Origin: Corallococcus sp. CA047B
GTDB lineage: Bacteria > Myxococcota > Myxococcia > Myxococcales > Myxococcaceae
DNA: 36,692 bases
Assembly: GCF_003612065.1 (NCBI RefSeq)
Contig: NZ_RAWD01000050.1
Location: 1 to 36,692, forward strand
Reading direction: 5' to 3'
The position numbers and the translations under genes were made by a program. Below are positions 10,983 to 36,692 of the stretch, one piece after another. The notes below the pieces were generated by a model. It had not been told where the DNA came from. It saw only the letters and a program-made list of their open reading frames with translations, and ran no database searches. The number at the start of each line of letters is the position of its first letter. The stretch's first letter is position 1.

Positions 10983-11052
10983 GCCGATGCGTGCCCGGAG
11001 GTGCTCGGCGAGACGCACCCGTGTCTGCGCCGGACGGATACAAGGTACACCC

Positions 11053-11853
11053 ATGACAACGACGTACGCTCCCAATCAGACGACAACTCGCGGGCATGCC
11101 GTTCAAATCAACGACATTGAGATGTACTACGAGGAGTATGGAGTCGGAAAGCCCCTGGTGCTCTTGCATGGGTTTGGCGGTTGTTCACAGAACTGGCATC
11201 CCTTTACCGCCAGGCTCTCAGAGCGCCATCGACTGATCGTCGTGGATATGCGTGGCCATGGTTACTCCACCAATCCCGAGAACAAATTTACACATCGGGA
11301 AGCGGCCCGTGACGTGTTCCTCTTGCTTGAGAAGCTGGGGGTTGGTCGGTTCTCGGCCATGGGTATGAGTTCTGGCGGGATGGCGCTGCTTCACATGGCA
11401 ACGAGCCAACCCAAGCGCATCGACTCAATGGTATTGATTAGCGCGACTTCCCATTTCCCCGATCAGGCAAGGGCCATCATGCGCAGGGCTTCGTTTGAGA
11501 CGATGCCCCAACAAGTGCGAGAGATGTATCGGGAGTGCGCAAAACGCGGAGATGCGCAGATTCGTCAACTCATTGCGCAGTTCAATGCGTTGAGTAAAGA
11601 CTACGACGACATGAATTTCACTGCGCAGAGCCTGTCGGCCATTACGGCTCGTACGCTCGTTGTGCACGGTGATCGCGACCACTTTTTTCCCGTTGAAATT
11701 CCTGTGAGCATCTACCGGTCCATACCGGATGCCGCGCTATGGATTGTTCCTGGCGGCGACCACGTTCCTGTTTTTGATTCCACGGTTCCATTCACCTCAA
11801 CAGCCCTTCGATTCCTTGAGGGGCCAGACAGCAAGCAGCCATCAGCGGCCTGA
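11053..11853 (+). CDS. alpha/beta-fold hydrolase
   Basis: LVLLHGFGG...GMSSGG (GxSxG nucleophile elbow)...VHGDRDHF. The gene is markedly lower in GC (~54%, many A/T-ending codons) than its neighbours. Confidence 0.75.
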   Translation: MTTTYAPNQTTTRGHAVQINDIEMYYEEYGVGKPLVLLHGFGGCSQNWHPFTARLSERHRLIVVDMRGHGYSTNPENKFTHREAARDVFLLLEKLGVGRFSAMGMSSGGMALLHMATSQPKRIDSMVLISATSHFPDQARAIMRRASFETMPQQVREMYRECAKRGDAQIRQLIAQFNALSKDYDDMNFTAQSLSAITARTLVVHGDRDHFFPVEIPVSIYRSIPDAALWIVPGGDHVPVFDSTVPFTSTALRFLEGPDSKQPSAA

Positions 11854-28060: not shown

Positions 28061-28325
28061 GGCATGTGGGTGTCACGCCAGCAAGCCGCTGCGGGCATTC
28101 TGTGTTTGGGAAACACCCGCGCGATACGGCCGCCAACATCGCGTGCGCGAGCCCTGGACTTTCGCGGCCGGTCGGGTCGCGCCAGGGGCGAAGACGACCC
28201 AGATTCCAACGCAACCCTGTGCAGGTAGCTTCGCGCCGCGCTCCTTTCGACGCTTCCCTGGAGGTGCCCTGCACCCGGGAGCTGGAAGAGGAGCCGCGCC
28301 CGTTCCGAAATCGAAAGAGGCTCGT

Positions 28326-29558
28326 ATGAAGTCAGAAGCACGGCAGTGGTGGGGGTGGATGCTCTTCGTGGTCAGCGCCGTGATGGTGGGCTGTGGGGGC
28401 GAGCCGTCCGCCTCCGGTGCCACCCAGGAGGCACGGACGCAGCCACTGGCGTTGAGGACCGCCAGCAACCGCCTCACGCAAGGGGGCCGGATCGCCGCCG
28501 GCTGGTACCACTCCGTGGCCGTGCTGGAGGACGACACCGTGTGGGCCTGGGGCGAGAACACCTTCGGCCAGGTGGGCGACGGGACGAACGCGACCCGGAG
28601 CTCGCCGATGCAGGTGGCGGAGCTGACGGGTGTCACGCAGGTGAGCGGGGGCGCCTACCACTCGGTGGCGTTGAAGGCGGATGGCACCGTGTGGACCTGG
28701 GGCTACAACGTCTATGGCCAGCTCGGTGACAGGACGACCTTCGCGCGCAACGCGCCGGTGCAGGTGGACGGCCTCACGGAGGTCACCGCCCTCGCGGCGG
28801 GGGGCTACCACTCGGTGGCCTTGAAGGCGGACGGCACGGTGTGGACCTGGGGCTACAACGGCTACGGCCAGCTCGGGGATGGGACGGACACGGAGCGCGC
28901 CCAGGCCCTTCAGGTGCCGGACCTCACGGGAATCACTTCCATCGCCACGGGGCGCAACCACGTGCTGGCGTTGAAGGAAGACGGCACGGTGTGGATCTGG
29001 GGCGACAACACGTTTGGCCAGTTGGGTGACGGGACGACGGTGCACCGACGTTCACCGGTGGAGGTGCAGGGCCTGACGGGCGTCACGGGCGTCTTCGCTG
29101 GCATCTTCCACTCGTTCGCCGTGAGACAGGACGGCACGGTGTGGGCCTGGGGCTACAACGTCTATGGACAGCTCGGAGATGGGACGACCCTGGAGCGCCA
29201 TGCGCCCGTGCAGGTGTTGGACCTCACGGACGTCACGGCCCTGGCCGCGGGGGGCTTTCACACGCTGGCCCTGAAGCAGGACGGCACGGTGCGGGCCTGG
29301 GGCTACAACGGCTACGGCCAGCTCGGGGATGGCACCGACAATGAGCGCAGTAGGGCCGCGCTGGTGCCGGACCTCACGGGCGTCACGACCGTGGCCGCTG
29401 GCTACAATCACTCGCTCGCCGTGAATGCGGACGGCACGGTGTGGACCTGGGGCTACAACGATTACGGCCAACTGGGTGACGGGACGACCGTGCACCGACG
29501 TTCGCCGGTGGAGGTGCCTGGACTGGCGGGCGCTGAAAACGCACTCCAGGGTCCCTGA
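28326..29558 (+). CDS. RCC1-repeat (regulator of chromosome condensation-like) beta-propeller lipoprotein
   Basis: MKSEARQWWGWMLFVVSAVMVGCGG signal plus lipobox, with AAGAGG RBS. Seven consecutive ~52-aa RCC1 repeats (GxYHSVALKADGTVWTWGYNxYGQLGDGT...PVQVxGLTGV). Confidence 0.85.
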   Translation: MKSEARQWWGWMLFVVSAVMVGCGGEPSASGATQEARTQPLALRTASNRLTQGGRIAAGWYHSVAVLEDDTVWAWGENTFGQVGDGTNATRSSPMQVAELTGVTQVSGGAYHSVALKADGTVWTWGYNVYGQLGDRTTFARNAPVQVDGLTEVTALAAGGYHSVALKADGTVWTWGYNGYGQLGDGTDTERAQALQVPDLTGITSIATGRNHVLALKEDGTVWIWGDNTFGQLGDGTTVHRRSPVEVQGLTGVTGVFAGIFHSFAVRQDGTVWAWGYNVYGQLGDGTTLERHAPVQVLDLTDVTALAAGGFHTLALKQDGTVRAWGYNGYGQLGDGTDNERSRAALVPDLTGVTTVAAGYNHSLAVNADGTVWTWGYNDYGQLGDGTTVHRRSPVEVPGLAGAENALQGP

Positions 29559-30840: not shown

Positions 30841-31002
30841 GCTGAAGTCATCGCGGACCGGTGTGGCGTCCCCCTGACCCAGCGGCGTGATGGGTGCACG
30901 GTCGGTAAGGTCGCCGACTCCCTTTTCTGGTGATCCTCCGGATACGTCTCCGCGGCGACGCCTGGGAAGGAGTCCATCGAATACCGCGTGCGGAGAAACA
31001 CG

Positions 31003-33378
31003 ATGTCTCAAGAGCGAAGAAGCAGGCTGTTCTGTCTGGCTGTGGGCCTGATGGTCGCGCTGGCCGGGTGCGTCTCCGAGGATGCGTCCGGAAGCGCGCA
31101 GGTGGTGGTGACGCTGCCTCAGGGGCTGAGTGCCAGTGATGTGGTGCGGGTGGAGTTGACGGTGAGCGGAGAGGGGATGACCGCTCGCACCGACGCGCTG
31201 GTGAAGACGGGCGCCCAGTGGGGCGGCGTGCTGGGAAAGCTTCCTGAGGGAGAGGGGCGCACCTTCCATGGAGAGGCTTTCGACGCGCAAGGTGCGAGGC
31301 GCTACGAGGGAGAGGCGACGGGTGTCCGAATCTTCACCGGTGAGACGACGGCGGTCGCGCTGGTGCTCCAGGAAGTGAATGCCCCCGCGCCCTTTGAAAA
31401 CACGGCGCCCGTCATCACCTCGCTGGTGGCCAGTCCTTCGACGGTCGGACCGGAGGGGGTGGTGGCGCTCCAGGCGAGCGCGGAGGACTCCGACGCGGAG
31501 GACGACCTCACGTATGCATGGACAGCGAGCGCGGGCAGCTTCAGTTCGCCTGGCAGCCTCACCACGACGTGGGTGGCGCCTTCCGTGCCCGGCGCGGTGG
31601 TGTTGACGTTGACGGTGACGGACTCGAAGGGGGCCTCGGACGCCGTCAGCCTGAGCATCACGGTGACGAGTGGCACGGGGAGCGTGGCCGTCAACGTGAC
31701 GGTGAATACGTGGCCCAGGGTGACAGGGGTGACGGCGATGCCCTCATCCGTGGCGGTGGGGCAGGCCACGTCCGTGACGGCCGTGGCGGGTGATGCGGAT
31801 GGGGACAGCCTGGGCTACCAGTGGACGTCGGATTGCCAGGGCACGTGGACGGATGAGACCTCTCCGAACGCGAGCTTCACGCCGACAGCGCAGCCGCCCA
31901 TGGGAAGCGCGTGCGCCCGGTGTTCGCTGAGGGTGACGGTGGCGGACGGCAGGGGAGGGCAGACAACAGGGACGCTGGGCGTCTGCGTTGGGCCCTCGAC
32001 GCAGGCGCGCTTCCCGCCGGAGGTGGTGGAGACGTTCCAGTCCGTCGTCAGTGTTCCGGCGGAGGGGGGAACCGTCGTCTTCAGGGTGAGGGCGAAGGAC
32101 CCGCAGGACAGCGCGCTCACCTTCGCCTGGGCCACCAACGTGGGGGCGCTGGGGGCGGCCTCCAGCGGCGGTGTGACGAGCGAGGTCCTCTGGACGGCGC
32201 CTTCGTGCATCCCCGAGGGCACGACGCCCGCGGTGACGGTGTCCGTCACCAACGCGCTGGGGCTCTCCTCCAGCGCTTCCTTCGGTCTGCAAGGGGGCAC
32301 GGTCTGCACGGCACCGTCGGGGCGCGTGATTCGAATCGCGGGCTCCTACTACTCCACCATGGCGTTGAAGCAGGACGGCACCGTGTGGACCTGGGGCCGA
32401 AACAATTTTGGCAACCTTGGGGATGGGACGACCGTCAACCGCGACACGCCAGTGCAGGTGCAGGGCCTGACGGGGGTGACTGCCATTGCACCAGGCGACA
32501 CCCACATGCTCGCCCTGAAGCAGGACGGCTCCGTTTGGGCCTGGGGTGACAACGGTGCCTATGAGCTGGGGGACGGGACCACGGTCCCTCGTCCCACCGC
32601 GGGGCCGGTGCCGGGTCTGACGGACGTCGTGGCGATCGCGTCAGGTGGCTATCACTCGCTGGCCTTGAAGCAGGACGGCACCGTGTGGGCCTGGGGCTGG
32701 AATATCGACGGCTCCCTTGGAGACGGCTCGAAGGCCGCGCGCGCGGTTCCGGTCCAGGTGCTGGGGTTGACGGGCGTCGTGACGCTCCGAGCTGGCTGGC
32801 ACCACATGATGGCCGTGAAGCAGGACGGGACCGTGTGGGGCTGGGGGCTCAACTCCAGAGGTCAACTCGGGGACGGGACGACCGCTGAGCGCCTCACGCC
32901 AGTCCAGGTCCAGGGCTTGACGGATGTCGCGGCCATTGTCCCTGCCGCCTACCACACGCTGGCCTTGAAGCAGGATGGCACGGTGTGGGCCTGGGGCTAC
33001 AACGACTACGGACAACTCGGGAATGGGACGACCACCAGCAGCTCCTCGCCAGTGCAGGTGCCGGGCCTGACAGGTGTCGTCGCCCTTGCCGGGGGCCGAT
33101 ACCACTCGCTGGCCCTGAAGCAGGACGGCACCGTGTGGGCCTGGGGTTGGAACCACCGTGGCCAGTTCGGGGATGGGACGACCACCCACCGCGGCGTGCC
33201 AGGACGGGTGCCAGGCCTGACGGGGGTTTCGGCACTCACCGCGGGGCAGCAGTCCACGTTTGCCTTGAAGCAGGACGGCACCGTGTGGGCCTGGGGTGAC
33301 AATGGCTGGGGCGCCCTGGGGGCCGGACCGTCCACGGACCAGCACTCGCCCGTGCAGGTCCACGTGTTGGGGCACTGA
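31003..33378 (+). CDS. lipoprotein with N-terminal Ig-like domains (paralogous to those of the Kelch lipoprotein) and a C-terminal seven-repeat RCC1 beta-propeller
   Basis: MSQERRSRLFCLAVGLMVALAGC lipoprotein signal (ATG at 31003 with GGAG 7 nt upstream; the GTG at 30988 is an alternative start). Ig-like modules are ~60% identical to those of the 15480..17828 protein (NAPAPFENTAPVITSLVASPSTV... vs NVPGPFDNSAPCIDSLVASASTV...). Then seven RCC1 repeats (YHSLALKQDGTVWAWGxNxxGQLGDGT). Confidence 0.85.
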   Translation: MSQERRSRLFCLAVGLMVALAGCVSEDASGSAQVVVTLPQGLSASDVVRVELTVSGEGMTARTDALVKTGAQWGGVLGKLPEGEGRTFHGEAFDAQGARRYEGEATGVRIFTGETTAVALVLQEVNAPAPFENTAPVITSLVASPSTVGPEGVVALQASAEDSDAEDDLTYAWTASAGSFSSPGSLTTTWVAPSVPGAVVLTLTVTDSKGASDAVSLSITVTSGTGSVAVNVTVNTWPRVTGVTAMPSSVAVGQATSVTAVAGDADGDSLGYQWTSDCQGTWTDETSPNASFTPTAQPPMGSACARCSLRVTVADGRGGQTTGTLGVCVGPSTQARFPPEVVETFQSVVSVPAEGGTVVFRVRAKDPQDSALTFAWATNVGALGAASSGGVTSEVLWTAPSCIPEGTTPAVTVSVTNALGLSSSASFGLQGGTVCTAPSGRVIRIAGSYYSTMALKQDGTVWTWGRNNFGNLGDGTTVNRDTPVQVQGLTGVTAIAPGDTHMLALKQDGSVWAWGDNGAYELGDGTTVPRPTAGPVPGLTDVVAIASGGYHSLALKQDGTVWAWGWNIDGSLGDGSKAARAVPVQVLGLTGVVTLRAGWHHMMAVKQDGTVWGWGLNSRGQLGDGTTAERLTPVQVQGLTDVAAIVPAAYHTLALKQDGTVWAWGYNDYGQLGNGTTTSSSSPVQVPGLTGVVALAGGRYHSLALKQDGTVWAWGWNHRGQFGDGTTTHRGVPGRVPGLTGVSALTAGQQSTFALKQDGTVWAWGDNGWGALGAGPSTDQHSPVQVHVLGH

Positions 33379-33487: not shown

Positions 33488-34885
33488 TTATCGCTGGTAG
33501 CCGATTGCGATGATCTGGCCTGACGCGTCGCTGCTCACGAACAACTCGCCATTGGGGCCCACCCCCAACCCCACCGGCCGATGCGGCCAGCCGGCTGCGG
33601 TGTCGCTGGTGCCGTCGAACTCGAAGAACGGCTCGTAGCGAACCGGCAACCCGTTCTCGAACACCACCCGCGCCACCTCGTAGCCCTGGGCGGGCTGTCG
33701 ATTCCAGGAACCATGGAAGCTGACGAAGGCGTCGTTGACCACCTCGGGCGGGAAGGACGCGCCGTCGTAGAAGATGATGTCGAGCGGCGCAACGTGAGCG
33801 GGCATCGCCAACATTGGAGGCACCACATTGTTGACGTCGCGGCACCACGCATCGGAGTGGGTGCCATCATTCATGAAGCCCGGATCTGCCCACTGTGTCT
33901 TCGGGCCCATTCCCACGCCAGCCGGAAGCAGGAACTCACTGAAGCAATAGGGGTAGCCATAGAACCGCCCGGCTTCAGCGAAGAGATTCAGCTCTTCAGC
34001 GGGATTGTCGGTGTGGATGTCGCCCCCGAGGTCAGCACGGTTGAGGTTGTCTCGCCCGTTTTCCACACCCCACAGCCGGCCCTGGCTGTCGAAACGCAGG
34101 CCCGCTTCGTTCCGAAGGCCATCGGCAAACACCTCGCCGTCCGTGAAGGCCACGTTGCCCGCCTGAACCTGGGCCGCGGTGAAGCGACGAATGCGAGCGC
34201 GCGTCGAGTTGCTGTCCACGTTCGCGGCTGAACCGACGCTCACGTAGAGGCGGCCTTCGGCGTCGAAGATGATGGTCCGGGTGACATGGCCGCCCGCGGG
34301 GATGCCGGTCACCACTTCTTGCTGGCCGCTCAGCGCTGCCCTCATTCCGGTTGCGAACGGCCAACGCAGGACGCGCGTCGCGGAAGAGGCATAGAGAAAT
34401 CCGTCGTGCAGTGTGATGCCATGGTTGAGCCCGCTGACTTCGACCAGCGTCGCCCGTTCGGACGAATCCGAAACGCCGTCACCGTTCGAGTCGTAGAGCG
34501 CGGTGACTCGGCCCGCGCTGCGCTCGACCACCAGGACGTCTCCGTTCGGAGCGACGATCAACCCTCGCGGATCAGAAATGGTCGCCCAGGTCCATGCACA
34601 GTACCCCGCTGGCAACCTCGCATTGGCCACGTTGGCGCTCGCGGGCCCCAGGCAACTGTTCTTGAGAGAAGCGCCGGCATCGGAACTCCCGCCGCCGTCG
34701 GCCACACCGGCGTCACCCGTTGGGTTTTGATCTCCGGCATCGGTCCGATCCCCGGCATCCATTTCGACGCCGGCATCGCTCCCGGTAGAGGACGGGTCTG
34801 AACAACCCAGGAGGACAGAGGCACAGAGCGCTGCGACGAGCCCAAATCGCTGGTGAGACGGGAGGGAGAAGCATCTTCCAGTCAT
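33488..34885 (-). CDS. PQQ-dependent sugar dehydrogenase (soluble glucose/sorbosone dehydrogenase family) lipoprotein
   Basis: MTGRCFSLPSHQRFGLVAALCASVLLGC lipobox, then a DAG-rich linker (DAGVEMDAGDRTDAGDQNPTGDAGVADGG), then an SGDH-type six-bladed propeller (GRLYVSVGS...HGSWNR...GELFVSSDASGQI). Confidence 0.7.
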   Translation of the reverse strand: MTGRCFSLPSHQRFGLVAALCASVLLGCSDPSSTGSDAGVEMDAGDRTDAGDQNPTGDAGVADGGGSSDAGASLKNSCLGPASANVANARLPAGYCAWTWATISDPRGLIVAPNGDVLVVERSAGRVTALYDSNGDGVSDSSERATLVEVSGLNHGITLHDGFLYASSATRVLRWPFATGMRAALSGQQEVVTGIPAGGHVTRTIIFDAEGRLYVSVGSAANVDSNSTRARIRRFTAAQVQAGNVAFTDGEVFADGLRNEAGLRFDSQGRLWGVENGRDNLNRADLGGDIHTDNPAEELNLFAEAGRFYGYPYCFSEFLLPAGVGMGPKTQWADPGFMNDGTHSDAWCRDVNNVVPPMLAMPAHVAPLDIIFYDGASFPPEVVNDAFVSFHGSWNRQPAQGYEVARVVFENGLPVRYEPFFEFDGTSDTAAGWPHRPVGLGVGPNGELFVSSDASGQIIAIGYQR

Positions 34886-35321
34886 GGTGTTATTGCCTCA
34901 AAGAAAGAGGGGTTTGCTGCGGCCCGTGTTCCTTGTCGAGCGCTCCAGTGCTCCTGGCCGGGCGATCGACAGAAATACGCCCCGAGCCCGCGGGGCACCA
35001 GGGACTGAAATTGAATGGGCTTTAAAGGAGAGATTTAAAATGGGGTGCGCCCTGCGGGCATTGAAGAGGACACCGACGCGGCGATGCTTCACTTCGCACT
35101 GGGCCAGAGCGCGAGGGCAAGTACGAGATCGCGCCGCGGGTCGTTCTCGTAATCCAGGCTGGCGGTTGAGGTCTGGCAGCATACCAGCGCCCCCCTACCG
35201 TAGGTTCAACTGGTGCGAGGTGGTCGTGCCGAACAGCGCATTGCCGGGTACGCACGAGGTGTGAAGTGTGAGGCAGCGTCGCTCATTGACACTCGCGCGC
35301 TGTTGGGGCCACGCTGCGACG

Positions 35322-36035
35322 ATGACCAATACTCGTCACAGTGGCTCCCTTCGACAAGCGCTGACTGTAGTGGCTGCGTTCGCGCTCATGCTCGGCATCG
35401 GCAACGAGGCTGAGGCTCAACAAACGGGCAAGACGACCCGATACTGGGATTGTGCCAAAGGAAGCGCTTCGTGGACTGGGAAAGCCTCAGTTACCGGTCC
35501 GGTTAAAGCTTGCGCAAGCGATGGCGTCACCGTGCTCAGTCCGAATGCGCAAAGCGGTGCGAATGGTGGTACTGCCTTCATGTGTAACAACAATCAGCCA
35601 TGGGCTGTGAATGATAGTCTGGCGTATGGGGTTGCCGCAGCGTATGTGCCCGGCGGGTCAGAAGCCACTTTGAGCTGCGCCTGTTACGAATTGACATTCA
35701 CCAGCGGGTCCGCGAATGGCAAGAAGATGGTGGTTCAGGTTGTTAATACGGGAGGGCCTTCGGGTGACACCCATTTCGACCTGCTAATCCCTGGCGGGGG
35801 TGTTGGCATGTTCAATGCCTGTACGCCTCAGTGGAATGCTCCCTCCAGTGGTTGGGGTGCCCAGTACGGCGGCATCAGCAGTCGAGATCAATGCTCCATG
35901 CTGCCGTCTCAATTGCGGCCGGGCTGTTATTGGCGATTCGATTGGTTCAAGAACGCGGATAATCCTACCGTGAGCTTCAAGCCGGTCGCCTGTCCCACGG
36001 CAATCACCAATAAAACTGGCTGCATCCGCAAGTAA
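35322..36035 (+). CDS. glycoside hydrolase family 45 endo-beta-1,4-glucanase (eukaryote-like, cf. fungal EGV), secreted
   Basis: Signal peptide [32 protein letters not shown]. The mature part aligns almost residue-for-residue with Humicola EGV: TTRYWDC... vs STRYWDCC (catalytic Asp); [42 protein letters not shown] vs [50 protein letters not shown] vs [22 protein letters not shown] (second catalytic Asp); [36 protein letters not shown]. The gene is ~56% GC with many A/T-ending codons. Confidence 0.85.
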   Translation: [237 protein letters not shown]

Positions 36036-36178
36036 GGTAGGCGAACGTATCGTTGACCCCCTGCGCGGGCCGGGTTCCTTCGGGGACTCGGCCCTTTGCT
36101 TTCTGAGGGAGTGATCGGGCGAATGAGCTAACCCAGAGCCCGTTTGACGCGATCGCCGAGGTTTGATCTCCTCGGGGC

Positions 36179-36316
36179 ATGAGCGAAGGACTTCCCACGC
36201 CGGAGAAGTTGCGGCGGACCATCGTGCGCGCTTTCCACGAGGAGGGCCTCTCGTACGAGCAGATTGCCCACTTGCTGGGCATCGGAGAGGCCACGGTCAG
36301 TGCAATACCTCCATGA
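36179..36316 (+). pseudogene. IS630/Tc1-mariner-family transposase N-terminal fragment (remnant)
   Basis: MSEGLPTPEKLRRTIVRAFHEEGLSYEQIAHLLGIGEATVSAIPP* contains the IS630-family N-terminal HTH (LSYEQIA.LLGIGEATVSR...). It is truncated after 45 aa and the rest of the transposase is absent. Confidence 0.5.
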
Positions 36317-36352
36317 TTCGCGAGTACGGATGGGCGCCCGTGGGCCAACGGT

Positions 36353-36462
36353 GGAGGCGGAGGGAATCGAACCCACGGCCGGCGTTGCGAAAACCCCAGC
36401 AGAATCGCGCCCTTACCTCGCAACCGCCCGGAACCACTCGGATTCGACTTCCCTCCGCGTCC
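36353..36462 (-). ncRNA. tRNA-like element: canonical T-arm plus acceptor-like 3' strand closed by a 12-bp inverted repeat; possible tRNA-like gene or tRNA-derived att remnant
   Basis: The minus strand reads ...GCCGGCCGUGGGUUCGAUUCCCUCCGCCUCCA (T-loop UUCGAUU, stem GUGGG/CCCUC, then CGCCUCC-A). The only partner for the acceptor strand is GGACGCGGAGGG ~95 nt upstream (plus 36451-36462), giving an 11/12-bp closing helix. I could not fold a standard 76-nt cloverleaf. Confidence 0.3.
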
Positions 36463-36692
36463 CGCCCTGTCCCGGTTCGTCCCAACCCGTTCCGCAGCCT
36501 CCTGCGACATACGTGCAACATGGCGCCAGCCCCCGAGCAGTGAGGGCCGGCACCTGGGCGCCGTCCTACCACGGTGATCACGGCGGTTGAGGCGGGTAGC
36601 CGCAGTAGGCGAACCAGGTCGCTGCGTCCTGTGGCCGCACGGTTGCGAGTGCCTCTCGCATCGCTTCGCGGAGGGCCACATGCGTGCGGGCG

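What the first reader, a model, noticed from the sequence alone, without database searches (positions are those of the whole stretch)
35322..36035. Eukaryote-like GH45 endoglucanase with atypically low GC: likely horizontally acquired cellulase
The mature protein matches fungal GH45 (EGV) almost motif for motif, including both catalytic Asp positions (YWDC and HFDL). GH45 enzymes are overwhelmingly eukaryotic (fungi, some invertebrates) and rare in bacteria. The gene is ~56% GC against ~70% for its neighbours, with many NNA/NNT codons. It is preceded by a 436-bp low-GC spacer and followed by an IS remnant and a tRNA-like element, which together suggest a small acquired island.
Basis: partly seen in the sequence, partly recalled or inferred. 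Interest (0 to 1): 0.75.

Follow-up and report, generated by a model that had tools for sequence, protein, structure and literature searches.

The report
Eukaryote-type GH45 cellulase cassette in Corallococcus
A soil myxobacterium carries a small secreted cellulase gene of the kind normally found in fungi and soil animals. The gene sits in a roughly 1-kb low-GC cassette that has moved between myxobacterial genera. This is a clear but already catalogued case of a eukaryote-type gene living in bacteria.

Summary
Window 35322-36035 (+) encodes a 237-aa precursor: a Sec-type signal peptide followed by one GH45 subfamily-A domain (Pfam E 2.8e-73; AF2 model TM 0.96 to springtail Cel45 5H4U). Tyr8, Asp10, Ala74 and Asp121 are kept. 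The stabilising Asp114 is Pro.

The composition is foreign: GC 56.6%, GC3 0.60 and CAI-like 0.37, against 0.76-0.95 and 0.55-0.84 for the contig's genes. The window is a whole contig of Corallococcus sp. CA047B.

Relatives occur patchily in Corallococcus, Myxococcus, Pyxidicoccus and Archangium, each in a different neighbourhood. Homology is limited to about 0.9-1.0 kb (upstream region, ORF, terminator) at 82-92% nt identity, and it does not follow the species relationships. All other close relatives are eukaryotic.

Every bacterial copy has lost the Cys16/Cys86 pair. The window's subclade has also lost Cys12/Cys47.

So the gene is ultimately eukaryotic (donor unresolved; soil-invertebrate-like or fungal), and this genome probably got it from another myxobacterium. 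The 'IS remnant' is only a generic HTH fragment. The 'tRNA-like element' is a degenerate tmRNA-like fragment.

The protein is already in public databases and in a published supplementary tree. I rate it a new member of a known kind, of moderate interest.

The parts
35105..35321 (+). Conserved 5' non-coding part of the cassette. It contains an invariant TTGACA box at 35286-35291, 30 nt before the ATG.
   Evidence: It is 86-94% identical to the region upstream of the GH45 gene in L001-L004. Homology starts at 35105 (L002, L004), 35157 (L003), 35203 (L001) or about 35275 (L006). No full sigma-70 consensus promoter was found by the scan, so any promoter role is inferred.
35322..35417 (+). Signal peptide: 32 codons with a basic n-region, the hydrophobic core [15 protein letters not shown], and AEA before the predicted cleavage site.
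   Evidence: The sequence was read directly. AF2 pLDDT is below 50 for most of residues 1-26. The peptide is nearly identical in both bacterial subclades and absent from eukaryotic homologues. No signal-peptide predictor was available, so cleavage after Ala32 is inferred from the -3/-1 rule.
35418..36035 (+). Mature GH45 subfamily-A catalytic domain (205 aa) plus stop codon. There is no CBM or linker. Key codons: Asp10-equivalent 35448-35450, Asp121-equivalent 35778-35780, Pro replacing Asp114 at 35757-35759.
   Evidence: Pfam PF02015 E 2.8e-73. PDB hits E 5e-79. AF2 mean pLDDT 87.3. Foldseek TM 0.96 / rmsd 0.9 Å to 5H4U and 0.90-0.93 to fungal Cel45A structures. Residue table.
36036..36128 (+). 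Conserved 3' part of the cassette, with an intrinsic-terminator-like hairpin at 36067-36094 followed by TTTGCTTTCT.
   Evidence: The terminator scan finds a 12-bp stem with 9 GC pairs. The region is 92-98% identical in L001, L003, L004, L006 and L009 and is truncated inside the hairpin in L002.
34886..35104 (.). Non-conserved part of the intergenic spacer, between the AA12-like gene and the cassette (59% GC).
   Evidence: It has no homology to any related locus. Composition.
36179..36316 (+). 45-aa helix-turn-helix ORF fragment. It may be a remnant of a transposase or regulator N-terminus.
   Evidence: Pfam Sigma70_r4_2 E 2.8e-6 and HTH_23 E 1.1e-5. NCBIfam IS630 scores only E 0.029. Assignment as an IS remnant is weak.
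36349..36525 (-). Degenerate tmRNA-derived mini-element. It keeps the 5' acceptor-like end and the 3' T-arm/acceptor, with the body deleted.
   Evidence: Rfam RF00023 at 30 bits, E 8e-10, below gathering 47. ARAGORN finds no gene. A 75%-identical 177-bp copy lies directly upstream of the cassette in L004. Shorter pieces lie directly upstream in L002 and L009.

Best explanation
**What it is.** The gene encodes a secreted, single-domain GH45 subfamily-A endo-beta-1,4-glucanase.

**How it most likely works (steps marked shown or inferred).**
1. The precursor is exported by Sec and cleaved after Ala32 (inferred).
2. It folds into the six-stranded double-psi beta-barrel with five of the seven ancestral disulfides (fold shown by modelling; pairings inferred).
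3. It cleaves beta-1,4-glucan by the inverting mechanism, with Asp43 (Asp10 in H. insolens numbering) as base and Asp153 (Asp121) as acid (residues shown; activity inferred).

**Evolutionary history.** The gene descends from a eukaryotic GH45-A (soil invertebrate or fungus) that entered the Myxococcaceae/Archangiaceae lineage. There it acquired a bacterial signal peptide and lost the Cys16-Cys86 disulfide. In the window's subclade it also lost Cys12-Cys47 and a 13-codon N-terminal extension.

Since then it has moved between myxobacterial genomes as a unit of about 1 kb (5' region, ORF, terminator) that lands in unrelated chromosomal places. It remains compositionally foreign in most hosts.

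In this genome (Corallococcus sp. CA047B) it lies 657 bp from a contig end, next to a tmRNA-like remnant. This looks like a repeat-rich variable region.
For: **Family and fold**
- Pfam, PDB and fold matches.
- 67 of the 74 positions that are at least 95% conserved in 65 eukaryotic GH45-A are kept, including Tyr8, Asp10, Ala74 and Asp121.

**Foreign composition**
- GC3 0.60 and CAI-like 0.37.

**Source**
- The window is a 36,692-nt contig of Corallococcus sp. CA047B. The protein is RKH17878.1, annotated 'hypothetical protein'.

**Rarity in bacteria**
- The only named bacteria among the best 120 of 768 hits are 11 Myxococcota. The rest are fungi, springtail, nematodes, rotifers, a tardigrade, or unnamed.
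- In the literature, 31 of 16,401 bacterial species have GH45. Corallococcus coralloides and C. macrosporus are scored absent.

**Cassette behaviour**
- Homology between the window and L001-L004 is confined to W 35105-36128, at 82-92% nt identity. No flanking similarity appears even by tblastx.
- All ten myxobacterial loci examined have different neighbours.
- The Corallococcus CA053C copy is closer to the Archangium lansingense copy (91% in the CDS) than to the window's copy (88%).

**Single bacterial origin**
- The window subclade has 92% bootstrap, the second subclade 93%, and the two together 52%.
- The signal peptide is shared across subclades. Cys16 and Cys86 are absent from all 21 bacterial sequences and present in all 65 named eukaryotic ones. 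They are also present in all metagenomic GH45 loci covered at those positions except the myxobacterial L014 and the divergent L076.

**Eukaryote link**
- The nearest sequences that keep all cysteines (P0012, P0045) lie on contigs of 36% GC, with GC3 0.33.
- The published ML tree nests the myxobacterial group among Collembola sequences, with supports of 78-87.

**Gene under selection**
- Six copies are all exactly 711 nt, with at least 280 substitutions and no stop codon. P is about 2-6e-5 if the gene were unconstrained.
- dN/dS is 0.26 at core positions.
Against: **Activity is untested.**
- The stabilising Asp114 is Pro and Leu115 is Ser in this copy. Substitutions at Asp114 correlated with loss of activity in five beetle GH45s, though not in two others.
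- Constraint is relaxed. Overall dN/dS is 0.5-1.0 among the low-GC copies, and the three codon positions diverge about equally in the mature region.
- The catalytic acid is replaced in 2 of 9 close and 7 of 11 more distant bacterial homologues, so the family may be drifting away from hydrolysis.

**Phylogeny is weak at depth.**
- Monophyly of all bacterial copies has only 52% NJ bootstrap, and the link to a specific eukaryotic sister only 13%. The donor and the number of entries are not settled.

**Mobilisation is unexplained.**
- No integrase or intact transposase lies near any copy, and the cassette ends are ragged.

**No amelioration signal.**
- Third-position changes are AT->GC 23 against GC->AT 18. 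This is unexpected for a gene resident in 68-70% GC genomes.

**Unverified details.**
- The disulfide pairings rest on the co-loss pattern plus my memory of the H. insolens structure.
Its numbering agrees with the 2ENG alignment coordinates and with the residue names.
Confidence: 0.75

Rival explanations
1. The gene is a decaying or repurposed GH45. It is kept as an open reading frame but no longer works as a cellulase. It could be an expansin/loosenin-like wall-loosening or glucan-binding protein, or an enzyme with shifted specificity such as xyloglucan.
For: Asp114 is Pro and Leu115 is Ser in the active-site loop. That loop (EGV positions 109-115) is variable in bacterial copies but at least 97% conserved in eukaryotes. 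The catalytic acid is replaced by S/G/N/A/E in many bacterial homologues. Overall dN/dS is 0.5-1.0. D121E and D114E correlate with xyloglucanase activity, and other Asp114 changes with inactivity, in beetle GH45s.
Against: This particular copy keeps Tyr8, Asp10, Ala74 and Asp121. Core positions are under purifying selection, with dN/dS 0.26. The fold model fits GH45-A (TM 0.90-0.96) and not expansins (TM 0.24-0.30). Two beetle enzymes with Asp114 changes stayed active.
Confidence: 0.25
2. This is an ancient bacterial GH45 inherited vertically in myxobacteria and lost in most lineages. Its low GC would then be an intrinsic property of the gene rather than a sign of transfer.
For: The gene belongs to a bacterial clade in which several members share a similarly low GC. 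No amelioration signal is seen. No mobility gene is adjacent.
Against: Ten loci lie in ten different neighbourhoods, including two Corallococcus strains. The gene tree is incongruent with the genera: Corallococcus-Archangium 91% exceeds Corallococcus-Corallococcus 88%. dS is 0.13-0.33 across family-level hosts. The one flanking gene shared by L002 and L004 is 72% identical, against 87% for the cassette. The bacterial clade shows derived cysteine losses relative to an otherwise invariant eukaryotic pattern. Distribution is patchy.
Confidence: 0.05
3. This is an assembly or contamination artefact: eukaryotic DNA wrongly joined to a bacterial contig.
For: The gene lies 657 bp from the end of a draft contig. 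It is compositionally foreign.
Against: The cassette is flanked on both sides by high-GC bacterial sequence here and in ten other assemblies. Three of these are records of 10-13 Mb (M. stipitatus CP004025, A. gephyra CP043495, A. violaceum CP069396). It carries a bacterial-type signal peptide and an intrinsic terminator. It also has bacterial-clade-specific cysteine losses.
Confidence: 0.01
4. The transfer went the other way: myxobacteria were the source of GH45-A for some soil invertebrates.
For: In the published supplementary trees, a few nematode and mite sequences sit inside the myxobacterial group.
Against: For the family as a whole, eukaryotic diversity is vastly larger (128 of 409 fungi against 31 of 16,401 bacteria). 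The bacterial clade carries derived losses of cysteines that are invariant in eukaryotes. Its composition is foreign to its hosts. The embedded animal sequences could be contaminants and were not examined here.
Confidence: 0.05

Closest known systems
Humicola insolens endoglucanase V / Cel45A (PDB 2ENG, 3ENG, 4ENG), together with Melanocarpus, Thielavia and Neurospora Cel45A: the reference GH45 subfamily-A enzymes
   Same: Same fold (TM 0.89-0.93, rmsd 1.0-1.7 Å, 52-56% identity). The same catalytic Asp10/Asp121 dyad, Tyr8 and Ala74 are present. The catalytic domain has the same size.
   Different: It has a bacterial signal peptide. It lacks 2 of the 7 cysteine pairs. Asp114-Leu115 is replaced by Pro-Ser. 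It has no CBM1 or linker. It is encoded in a 68% GC bacterial genome.
Cryptopygus antarcticus (Antarctic springtail) GH45 cellulase, PDB 5H4U
   Same: It is the best solved match by sequence (E 5.4e-79) and by structure (TM 0.96, rmsd 0.9 Å). It shares the WxAPSxGWGxxYGG loop form. This fits the published tree that nests the myxobacterial sequences among Collembola.
   Different: The springtail enzyme keeps all 14 cysteines and Asp114, and it is an animal gene.
Other myxobacterial GH45 genes: Myxococcus stipitatus DSM 14675 'beta-1,4-endoglucanase', M. llanfair..., Archangium gephyra, A. violaceum and A. lansingense, Pyxidicoccus spp., Corallococcus praedator, CA031C and CA053C
   Same: They belong to the same bacterial clade, share the signal peptide, share the loss of Cys16/Cys86, and are single-domain proteins. 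The C. praedator and CA031C proteins differ from the window's by one residue.
   Different: The M. stipitatus copy is ameliorated (GC3 0.85) and has Tyr8Ala and Asp121Glu. Subclade-2 members keep Cys12/Cys47 and a 13-residue N-terminal extension. Several lack the catalytic acid.
Legionella GH45 clade, suggested to be an animal-to-bacterium transfer (Muelbaier et al. 2024, PMC13084967)
   Same: It is another case of a eukaryote-type GH45 inside a bacterial genus that lives in contact with soil or amoebal eukaryotes.
   Different: It is a separate clade on a very long branch, placed within oribatid mite sequences. It was not examined here.
Fungus-to-animal GH45 transfers (Bursaphelenchus nematodes, Phytophaga beetles)
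   Same: The same gene family moves between kingdoms. After transfer, the catalytic and stabilising residues diversify.
   Different: The recipient here is a bacterium. The gene then spreads between bacterial genera as a cassette of about 1 kb.

Membership tests
GH45 subfamily A (CAZy) / Pfam PF02015 | Sequence match to the family profile above the curated threshold | tested here: met
   246.8 bits against a cutoff of 27, covering profile positions 2-213 of 214. E 5e-79 to 4e-68 to ten solved GH45-A chains.
GH45 subfamily A (CAZy) / Pfam PF02015 | Six-stranded double-psi beta-barrel with the long substrate-embracing loops of subfamily A | tested here: met
   AF2 model with pLDDT 87.3. Foldseek TM(target) is 0.89-0.96 to subfamily-A structures, against 0.46-0.47 to subfamily-B (5XBU, 1WC2) and 0.24-0.30 to expansins. 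This rests on a predicted structure, not a solved one.
GH45 subfamily A (CAZy) / Pfam PF02015 | Catalytic base Asp10 (YWDC) and catalytic acid Asp121 (HFD) | tested here: met
   Asp43 and Asp153 of the precursor align with Asp10 and Asp121.
GH45 subfamily A (CAZy) / Pfam PF02015 | Supporting active-site residues Tyr8, Ala74 and Asp114 (stabilising site) | tested here: inconclusive
   Tyr8 and Ala74 are present. Asp114 is Pro and Leu115 is Ser. Changes at Asp114 often, but not always, abolish activity in beetle GH45s.
GH45 subfamily A (CAZy) / Pfam PF02015 | The fourteen conserved cysteines (seven disulfides) of eukaryotic members | tested here: not met
   Ten of the 14 are kept. Cys12, Cys16, Cys47 and Cys86 are replaced by Ala, Ala, Ala and Ser. 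All 65 named eukaryotic sequences keep all 14. This is a conserved feature rather than a family-defining one.
GH45 subfamily A (CAZy) / Pfam PF02015 | Inverting endo-beta-1,4-glucanase activity | not testable with these tools
   This needs an enzyme assay.
Expansin / loosenin / non-catalytic DPBB proteins | No Asp10-equivalent base; small DPBB domain without the GH45-A loops (expansins also carry a second, CBM63-like domain) | tested here: not met
   Asp10 is present. Fold similarity to expansins and cerato-platanin is low (TM 0.17-0.30). No expansin Pfam family was hit.
tRNA/tmRNA-targeted integrative genomic island | Integrase gene plus direct repeats of the 3' end of an intact tRNA/tmRNA gene bounding the island | tested here: inconclusive
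   tmRNA-like fragments lie beside the cassette in W, L002 (two direct copies 6.9 kb apart), L004 and L009. No intact tRNA or tmRNA gene and no integrase was found. The window's contig ends 167 bp past the fragment.
ISCR / IS91-type rolling-circle gene capture | Y2 transposase gene with oriIS/terIS adjacent to the captured gene | tested here: not met
   Only C-terminal transposase fragments are present (NCBIfam NF052416, E 3.6e-6, 25.8 bits against a cutoff of 925). They lie beside the cassette in L001 and L003 and are absent from the window.

The most novel reading that the evidence does not exclude
A eukaryotic secreted cellulase was domesticated once by myxobacteria and is now an autonomous unit of about 1 kb (promoter, gene, terminator) that hops between genera. 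It may ride on tmRNA-derived mini-elements or IS91/ISCR-like capture events.

Its stepwise shedding of disulfides (first Cys16-Cys86, then Cys12-Cys47) would record adaptation of a eukaryotic, ER-folded enzyme to folding in the bacterial periplasm.

Its persistent low GC, with no amelioration signal, would mean either an unseen lower-GC reservoir or selection that keeps rare codons.
Probability: 0.3. Interest if true: 0.6.

Novelty: new member of a known kind. Interest (0 to 1): 0.4.

Why it matters
Transfers of functional genes from eukaryotes to bacteria are far rarer in the record than the reverse. Here the transferred gene is small, structurally well understood and easy to assay.

The myxobacterial clade offers a natural series for asking how a disulfide-rich eukaryotic secreted enzyme adapts to a bacterial export and folding system:
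- copies with all but one ancestral disulfide;
- copies with two disulfides lost;
- ameliorated and non-ameliorated copies;
- copies with and without the catalytic acid.

It also bears on what predatory myxobacteria do with a cellulase. Candidates are plant litter, oomycete walls, amoebal cysts or prey biofilm cellulose; this list is speculation.

There is a practical point too. NCBIfam has no GH45 model, so these genes are labelled 'hypothetical protein' and are easy to miss in bacterial CAZyme surveys.

Tried and rejected
**Extending past the contig end.** I tried to recover sequence beyond the contig end, or the C. praedator contig, by exact-protein look-ups. Nothing was on record.

**A two-gene lignocellulose island.** I asked whether the neighbouring TrAA12-like gene made this a two-gene island of eukaryotic origin. 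Rejected: its relatives are ordinary Myxococcota PQQ sugar dehydrogenases at up to 91% identity, and it does not accompany the cassette elsewhere.

**A plasmid or phage reservoir.** There was no tblastn hit in 72,556 plasmids or 50,697 phage records.

**Real tRNA or tmRNA genes.** None were found in the window or in six related loci.

**A sigma-70 promoter.** None was found in the spacer. Only a conserved TTGACA box is present.

**Positive selection.** I tested whether diversifying selection explains the high pairwise dN/dS. Rejected: partitioned dN/dS is 0.26 (core), 0.69 (intermediate) and 1.0 (variable). No class exceeds 1, so this is relaxed constraint, not demonstrable diversifying selection.

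**A structured RNA.** The tmRNA-like element folds no better than shuffled sequence (z -1.7).

**Disulfide map.** Literature searches for the GH45 disulfide map found nothing usable.

**Donor taxon.** The neighbours of the closest all-cysteine relatives (L007, L013) have no recognisable domains, so the donor taxon could not be named.
Full report
**1. What is there**

The window is a complete 36,692-nt contig of Corallococcus sp. CA047B. The product of 35322-36035 (+) is GenBank RKH17878.1, annotated 'hypothetical protein'. It differs by one residue from the C. praedator and CA031C protein.

The ORF encodes 237 aa. It matches Pfam Glyco_hydro_45 over essentially the whole profile (E 2.8e-73). 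It also matches ten solved GH45 subfamily-A structures. The best is the springtail Cryptopygus antarcticus cellulase 5H4U (E 5.4e-79).

An AlphaFold2 model built on a 46-sequence alignment has mean pLDDT 87.3, with values below about 50 over the first three 10-residue blocks. It superposes on structures as follows:

| Target | TM (target) | Note |
|---|---|---|
| 5H4U (springtail) | 0.96 | rmsd 0.9 Å |
| Fungal Cel45A structures | 0.89-0.93 | subfamily A |
| Subfamily-B GH45 | about 0.46 | |
| Expansins | 0.24-0.30 | |

The N-terminus is [34 protein letters not shown]. This is a Sec-type signal peptide by the -3/-1 rule (inference; no predictor was available). There is no CBM.

**2. Active site and cysteines**

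I aligned the protein to H. insolens EGV. Its numbering agrees with the 2ENG alignment coordinates and with the residue names used by Busch et al..

- Kept: Tyr8, Asp10 (base), Ala74 and Asp121 (acid).
- Changed: the 'stabilising' Asp114 is Pro and Leu115 is Ser.

Of the 74 positions that are at least 95% conserved in 65 named eukaryotic GH45-A sequences, the window protein keeps 67. The exceptions are Cys12, Cys16, Cys47, Cys86, Thr109, Asp114-Leu115, and one alignment gap.

In beetle GH45s, changes at Asp114 often but not always go with loss of activity. D114E and D121E go with xyloglucanase activity. Cellulase activity is therefore likely but not assured.

**3. Composition**

| Measure | GH45 gene | Rest of contig |
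|---|---|---|
| GC | 56.6% | 68.4% (whole window) |
| GC3 | 0.60 | 0.76-0.95 |
| CAI-like index (22 reference genes) | 0.374 | 0.55-0.84 |
| Rare codons | 16% | 3.3% |

**4. Relatives**

Among 768 homologues with E <= 1e-10, the best 120 contain only 11 named bacteria, all Myxococcota. These are Corallococcus, Myxococcus, Pyxidicoccus and Archangium. The remainder are Mucoromycota, Ascomycota, Basidiomycota, a chytrid, a springtail, nematodes, rotifers, a tardigrade and unnamed metagenome proteins.

The literature agrees. Muelbaier et al. 2024 found GH45 in 31 of 16,401 bacterial species against 128 of 409 fungi. They score C. coralloides and C. macrosporus as lacking it. Their supplementary trees already contain 'Corallococcus_praedator' with five other myxobacteria, nested among Collembola sequences (supports 78-87). 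Their text discusses only Legionella. Busch et al. 2019 also noted one bacterial sequence inside the Collembola clade.

The gene is therefore catalogued, but the myxobacterial case has not been analysed in the papers I could read.

**5. Phylogeny and shared derived characters**

My NJ tree covers 199 domain columns, 121 sequences and 100 bootstraps:

| Grouping | Bootstrap |
|---|---|
| Window subclade | 92% |
| Second bacterial subclade (A. gephyra, A. violaceum, Pyxidicoccus 3LG, M. stipitatus, M. llanfair...) | 93% |
| Both subclades together | 52% |
| Link to a sister group of unnamed sequences | 13% |

Evidence outside the tree columns supports one bacterial origin:
- The signal peptide is nearly identical between the window subclade and A. 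gephyra.
- Subclade 2 shares an N-terminal ...(F/L)xYLS... extension.
- All 21 bacterial sequences lack both Cys16 and Cys86. All 65 named eukaryotic sequences keep them. So do all metagenomic GH45 loci covered at those positions, except the myxobacterial L014 and the divergent L076.
- Cys12 and Cys47 are lost together in the window subclade, and independently in P0079.

The strict pairwise co-loss fits the disulfide pairs 16-86 and 12-47. The pairings come from my memory of the EGV structure and were not verified here.

The two nearest all-cysteine relatives lie on 36% GC contigs with GC3 0.33, which is eukaryote-like.

**6. The unit that moves**

Comparison of the window with Myxococcus qinghaiensis (L001), Corallococcus CA053C (L002), Archangium lansingense (L003) and Pyxidicoccus 3LFB2 (L004) shows similarity only from W 35105-35203 to W 36073-36128. 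Identity there is 82-92% nt. Nothing in the 6-10 kb flanks matches, even by tblastx.

The shared piece consists of:
- 120-215 bp of 5' non-coding sequence with an invariant TTGACA 30 nt before the ATG;
- the ORF;
- a conserved terminator hairpin at 36067-36094.

Its ends are ragged: a different breakpoint appears in each genome.

Ten myxobacterial loci have ten different neighbourhoods. The CDS identities do not follow taxonomy. CA053C against Archangium is 91%, while the two Corallococcus copies are 88%. Synonymous divergence among the low-GC copies is only 0.13-0.33. The one flanking gene shared by L002 and L004 is 72% identical, against 87% for the cassette.

I conclude that the cassette has moved between myxobacterial genomes since the genera split. 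CA047B probably received it from another myxobacterium.

**7. Selection**

Six copies are each exactly 711 nt with no indel. They carry at least 280 substitutions and no stop codon. About 10 stops would be expected without constraint, giving P about 2-6e-5.

Pairwise dN/dS is high, at 0.4-1.0. It partitions as follows:

| Codon class | Codons | dN/dS |
|---|---|---|
| Conserved in eukaryotes | 90 | 0.26 |
| Intermediate | 46 | 0.69 |
| Variable | 69 | 1.0 |

This is a real but relaxed constraint, not demonstrable positive selection.

The active-site loop (positions 109-115) and Asp121 are unusually labile in the bacterial clade. Asp121 is replaced in 2 of 9 close relatives and 7 of 11 more distant ones.

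**8. Composition through the clade**

| Copy | GC3 |
|---|---|
| A. violaceum | 0.53 |
| A. gephyra | 0.56 |
| Window subclade | 0.60-0.65 |
| M. llanfair... | 0.72 |
| M. stipitatus | 0.85 |

The low-GC copies show no drift toward host composition. Lineage-specific third-position changes are AT->GC 23 against GC->AT 18. Roughly 5:1 would be expected on the way to GC3 0.88. This is unexplained.

No copy exists in the plasmid or phage collections.

**9. Surroundings in the window**

- **Upstream.** A divergently transcribed TrAA12-like/GSDH PQQ sugar dehydrogenase (33488-34885) is an ordinary Myxococcota gene. The rest of the contig carries typical myxobacterial genes.
- **Downstream.** A 45-aa generic HTH ORF sits at 36179-36316; its assignment to IS630 is weak. 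A degenerate tmRNA-like element sits at 36349-36525 on the minus strand. The contig ends 167 bp later.

Copies or pieces of the same tmRNA-like element lie directly upstream of the cassette in L004, L002 and L009. L002 has two direct copies 6.9 kb apart that bracket the cassette. In L001 and L003 the cassette instead abuts 3' fragments of an ISCR/IS91-like transposase gene.

No integrase, intact transposase, tRNA gene or tmRNA gene was found. The mobilisation mechanism is therefore open.

**10. Verdict**

The protein is a GH45 subfamily-A member by profile, fold and catalytic dyad. It departs from the eukaryotic pattern in two disulfides and in Asp114.

It is a new, already deposited member of a known family, and one of a handful of eukaryote-type GH45 lineages in bacteria. 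The cassette behaviour, the ordered disulfide loss and the missing amelioration are the parts worth following up.

Noticed in passing
window 10987-11853 (+): A second compositional outlier on the contig. It is an alpha/beta-hydrolase gene (Pfam PF00561, E 7.6e-30) with about 58% GC, GC3 0.62 and the lowest CAI-like value on the contig (0.356). It may be another acquired gene.
   Followed up: no
window 36349-36525 (-); L004 6591-6767; L002 9714-9754 and 16641-16673; L009 7791-7833: A degenerate tmRNA-derived mini-element that keeps the 5' acceptor-like end and the 3' T-arm, with the body deleted. It scores 20-30 bits on Rfam tmRNA, below gathering. It recurs right beside the GH45 cassette in four of the low-GC loci, although no intact tmRNA gene is nearby.
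   Followed up: partly
L001 10965-11326 and 15590-15949; L003 18066-18425 and 9765-9840: Repeats of about 360 bp that encode the C-terminal end of an ISCR/IS91-like transposase (NCBIfam NF052416, E 3.6e-6) plus its 3' terminus. One end abuts the cassette in L003, and a copy lies 190 bp downstream of it in L001. No full-length transposase was seen.
   Followed up: partly
L001 (M. qinghaiensis), L006 (A. gephyra), L011 (A. violaceum), L005 (M. stipitatus), L012 (M. llanfair...): The catalytic acid Asp121 is replaced (Ser, Ser, Ala, Glu, Glu) in intact ORFs. The two Myxococcus Glu variants also have Tyr8Ala. This suggests loss or change of activity in many bacterial members.
   Followed up: partly
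window 35322-36032 versus L001-L004, L009: The low-GC copies show no amelioration. Lineage-specific third-position substitutions are balanced (AT->GC 23, GC->AT 18) despite dS of 0.13-0.33 in genomes whose genes have GC3 near 0.9.
   Followed up: partly
window 35322-36035 and all related GenBank records: NCBIfam has no model that hits this GH45. Apart from the M. stipitatus record, the myxobacterial copies are deposited as 'hypothetical protein'.
   Followed up: yes
window 33488-34885 (-): A TrAA12-like / glucose-sorbosone dehydrogenase with a long low-complexity N-terminal region sits divergently next to the cellulase gene. It is widespread in Myxococcota (91% and 85% identical relatives). 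Its GC3 (0.76) and CAI-like value (0.55) are somewhat low.
   Followed up: yes
window 28143-29558 (+) and 30988-33378 (+): Two large RCC1-repeat proteins. The second also has PKD, Big_9 and cadherin-like domains.
   Followed up: no
supplementary trees of PMC13084967: Nematode sequences (Prismatolaimus, Mesodorylaimus) and a mite sequence (Eniochthonius_2) fall inside the myxobacterial GH45 group. This could be contamination of those assemblies or a secondary bacterium-to-animal transfer.
   Followed up: no
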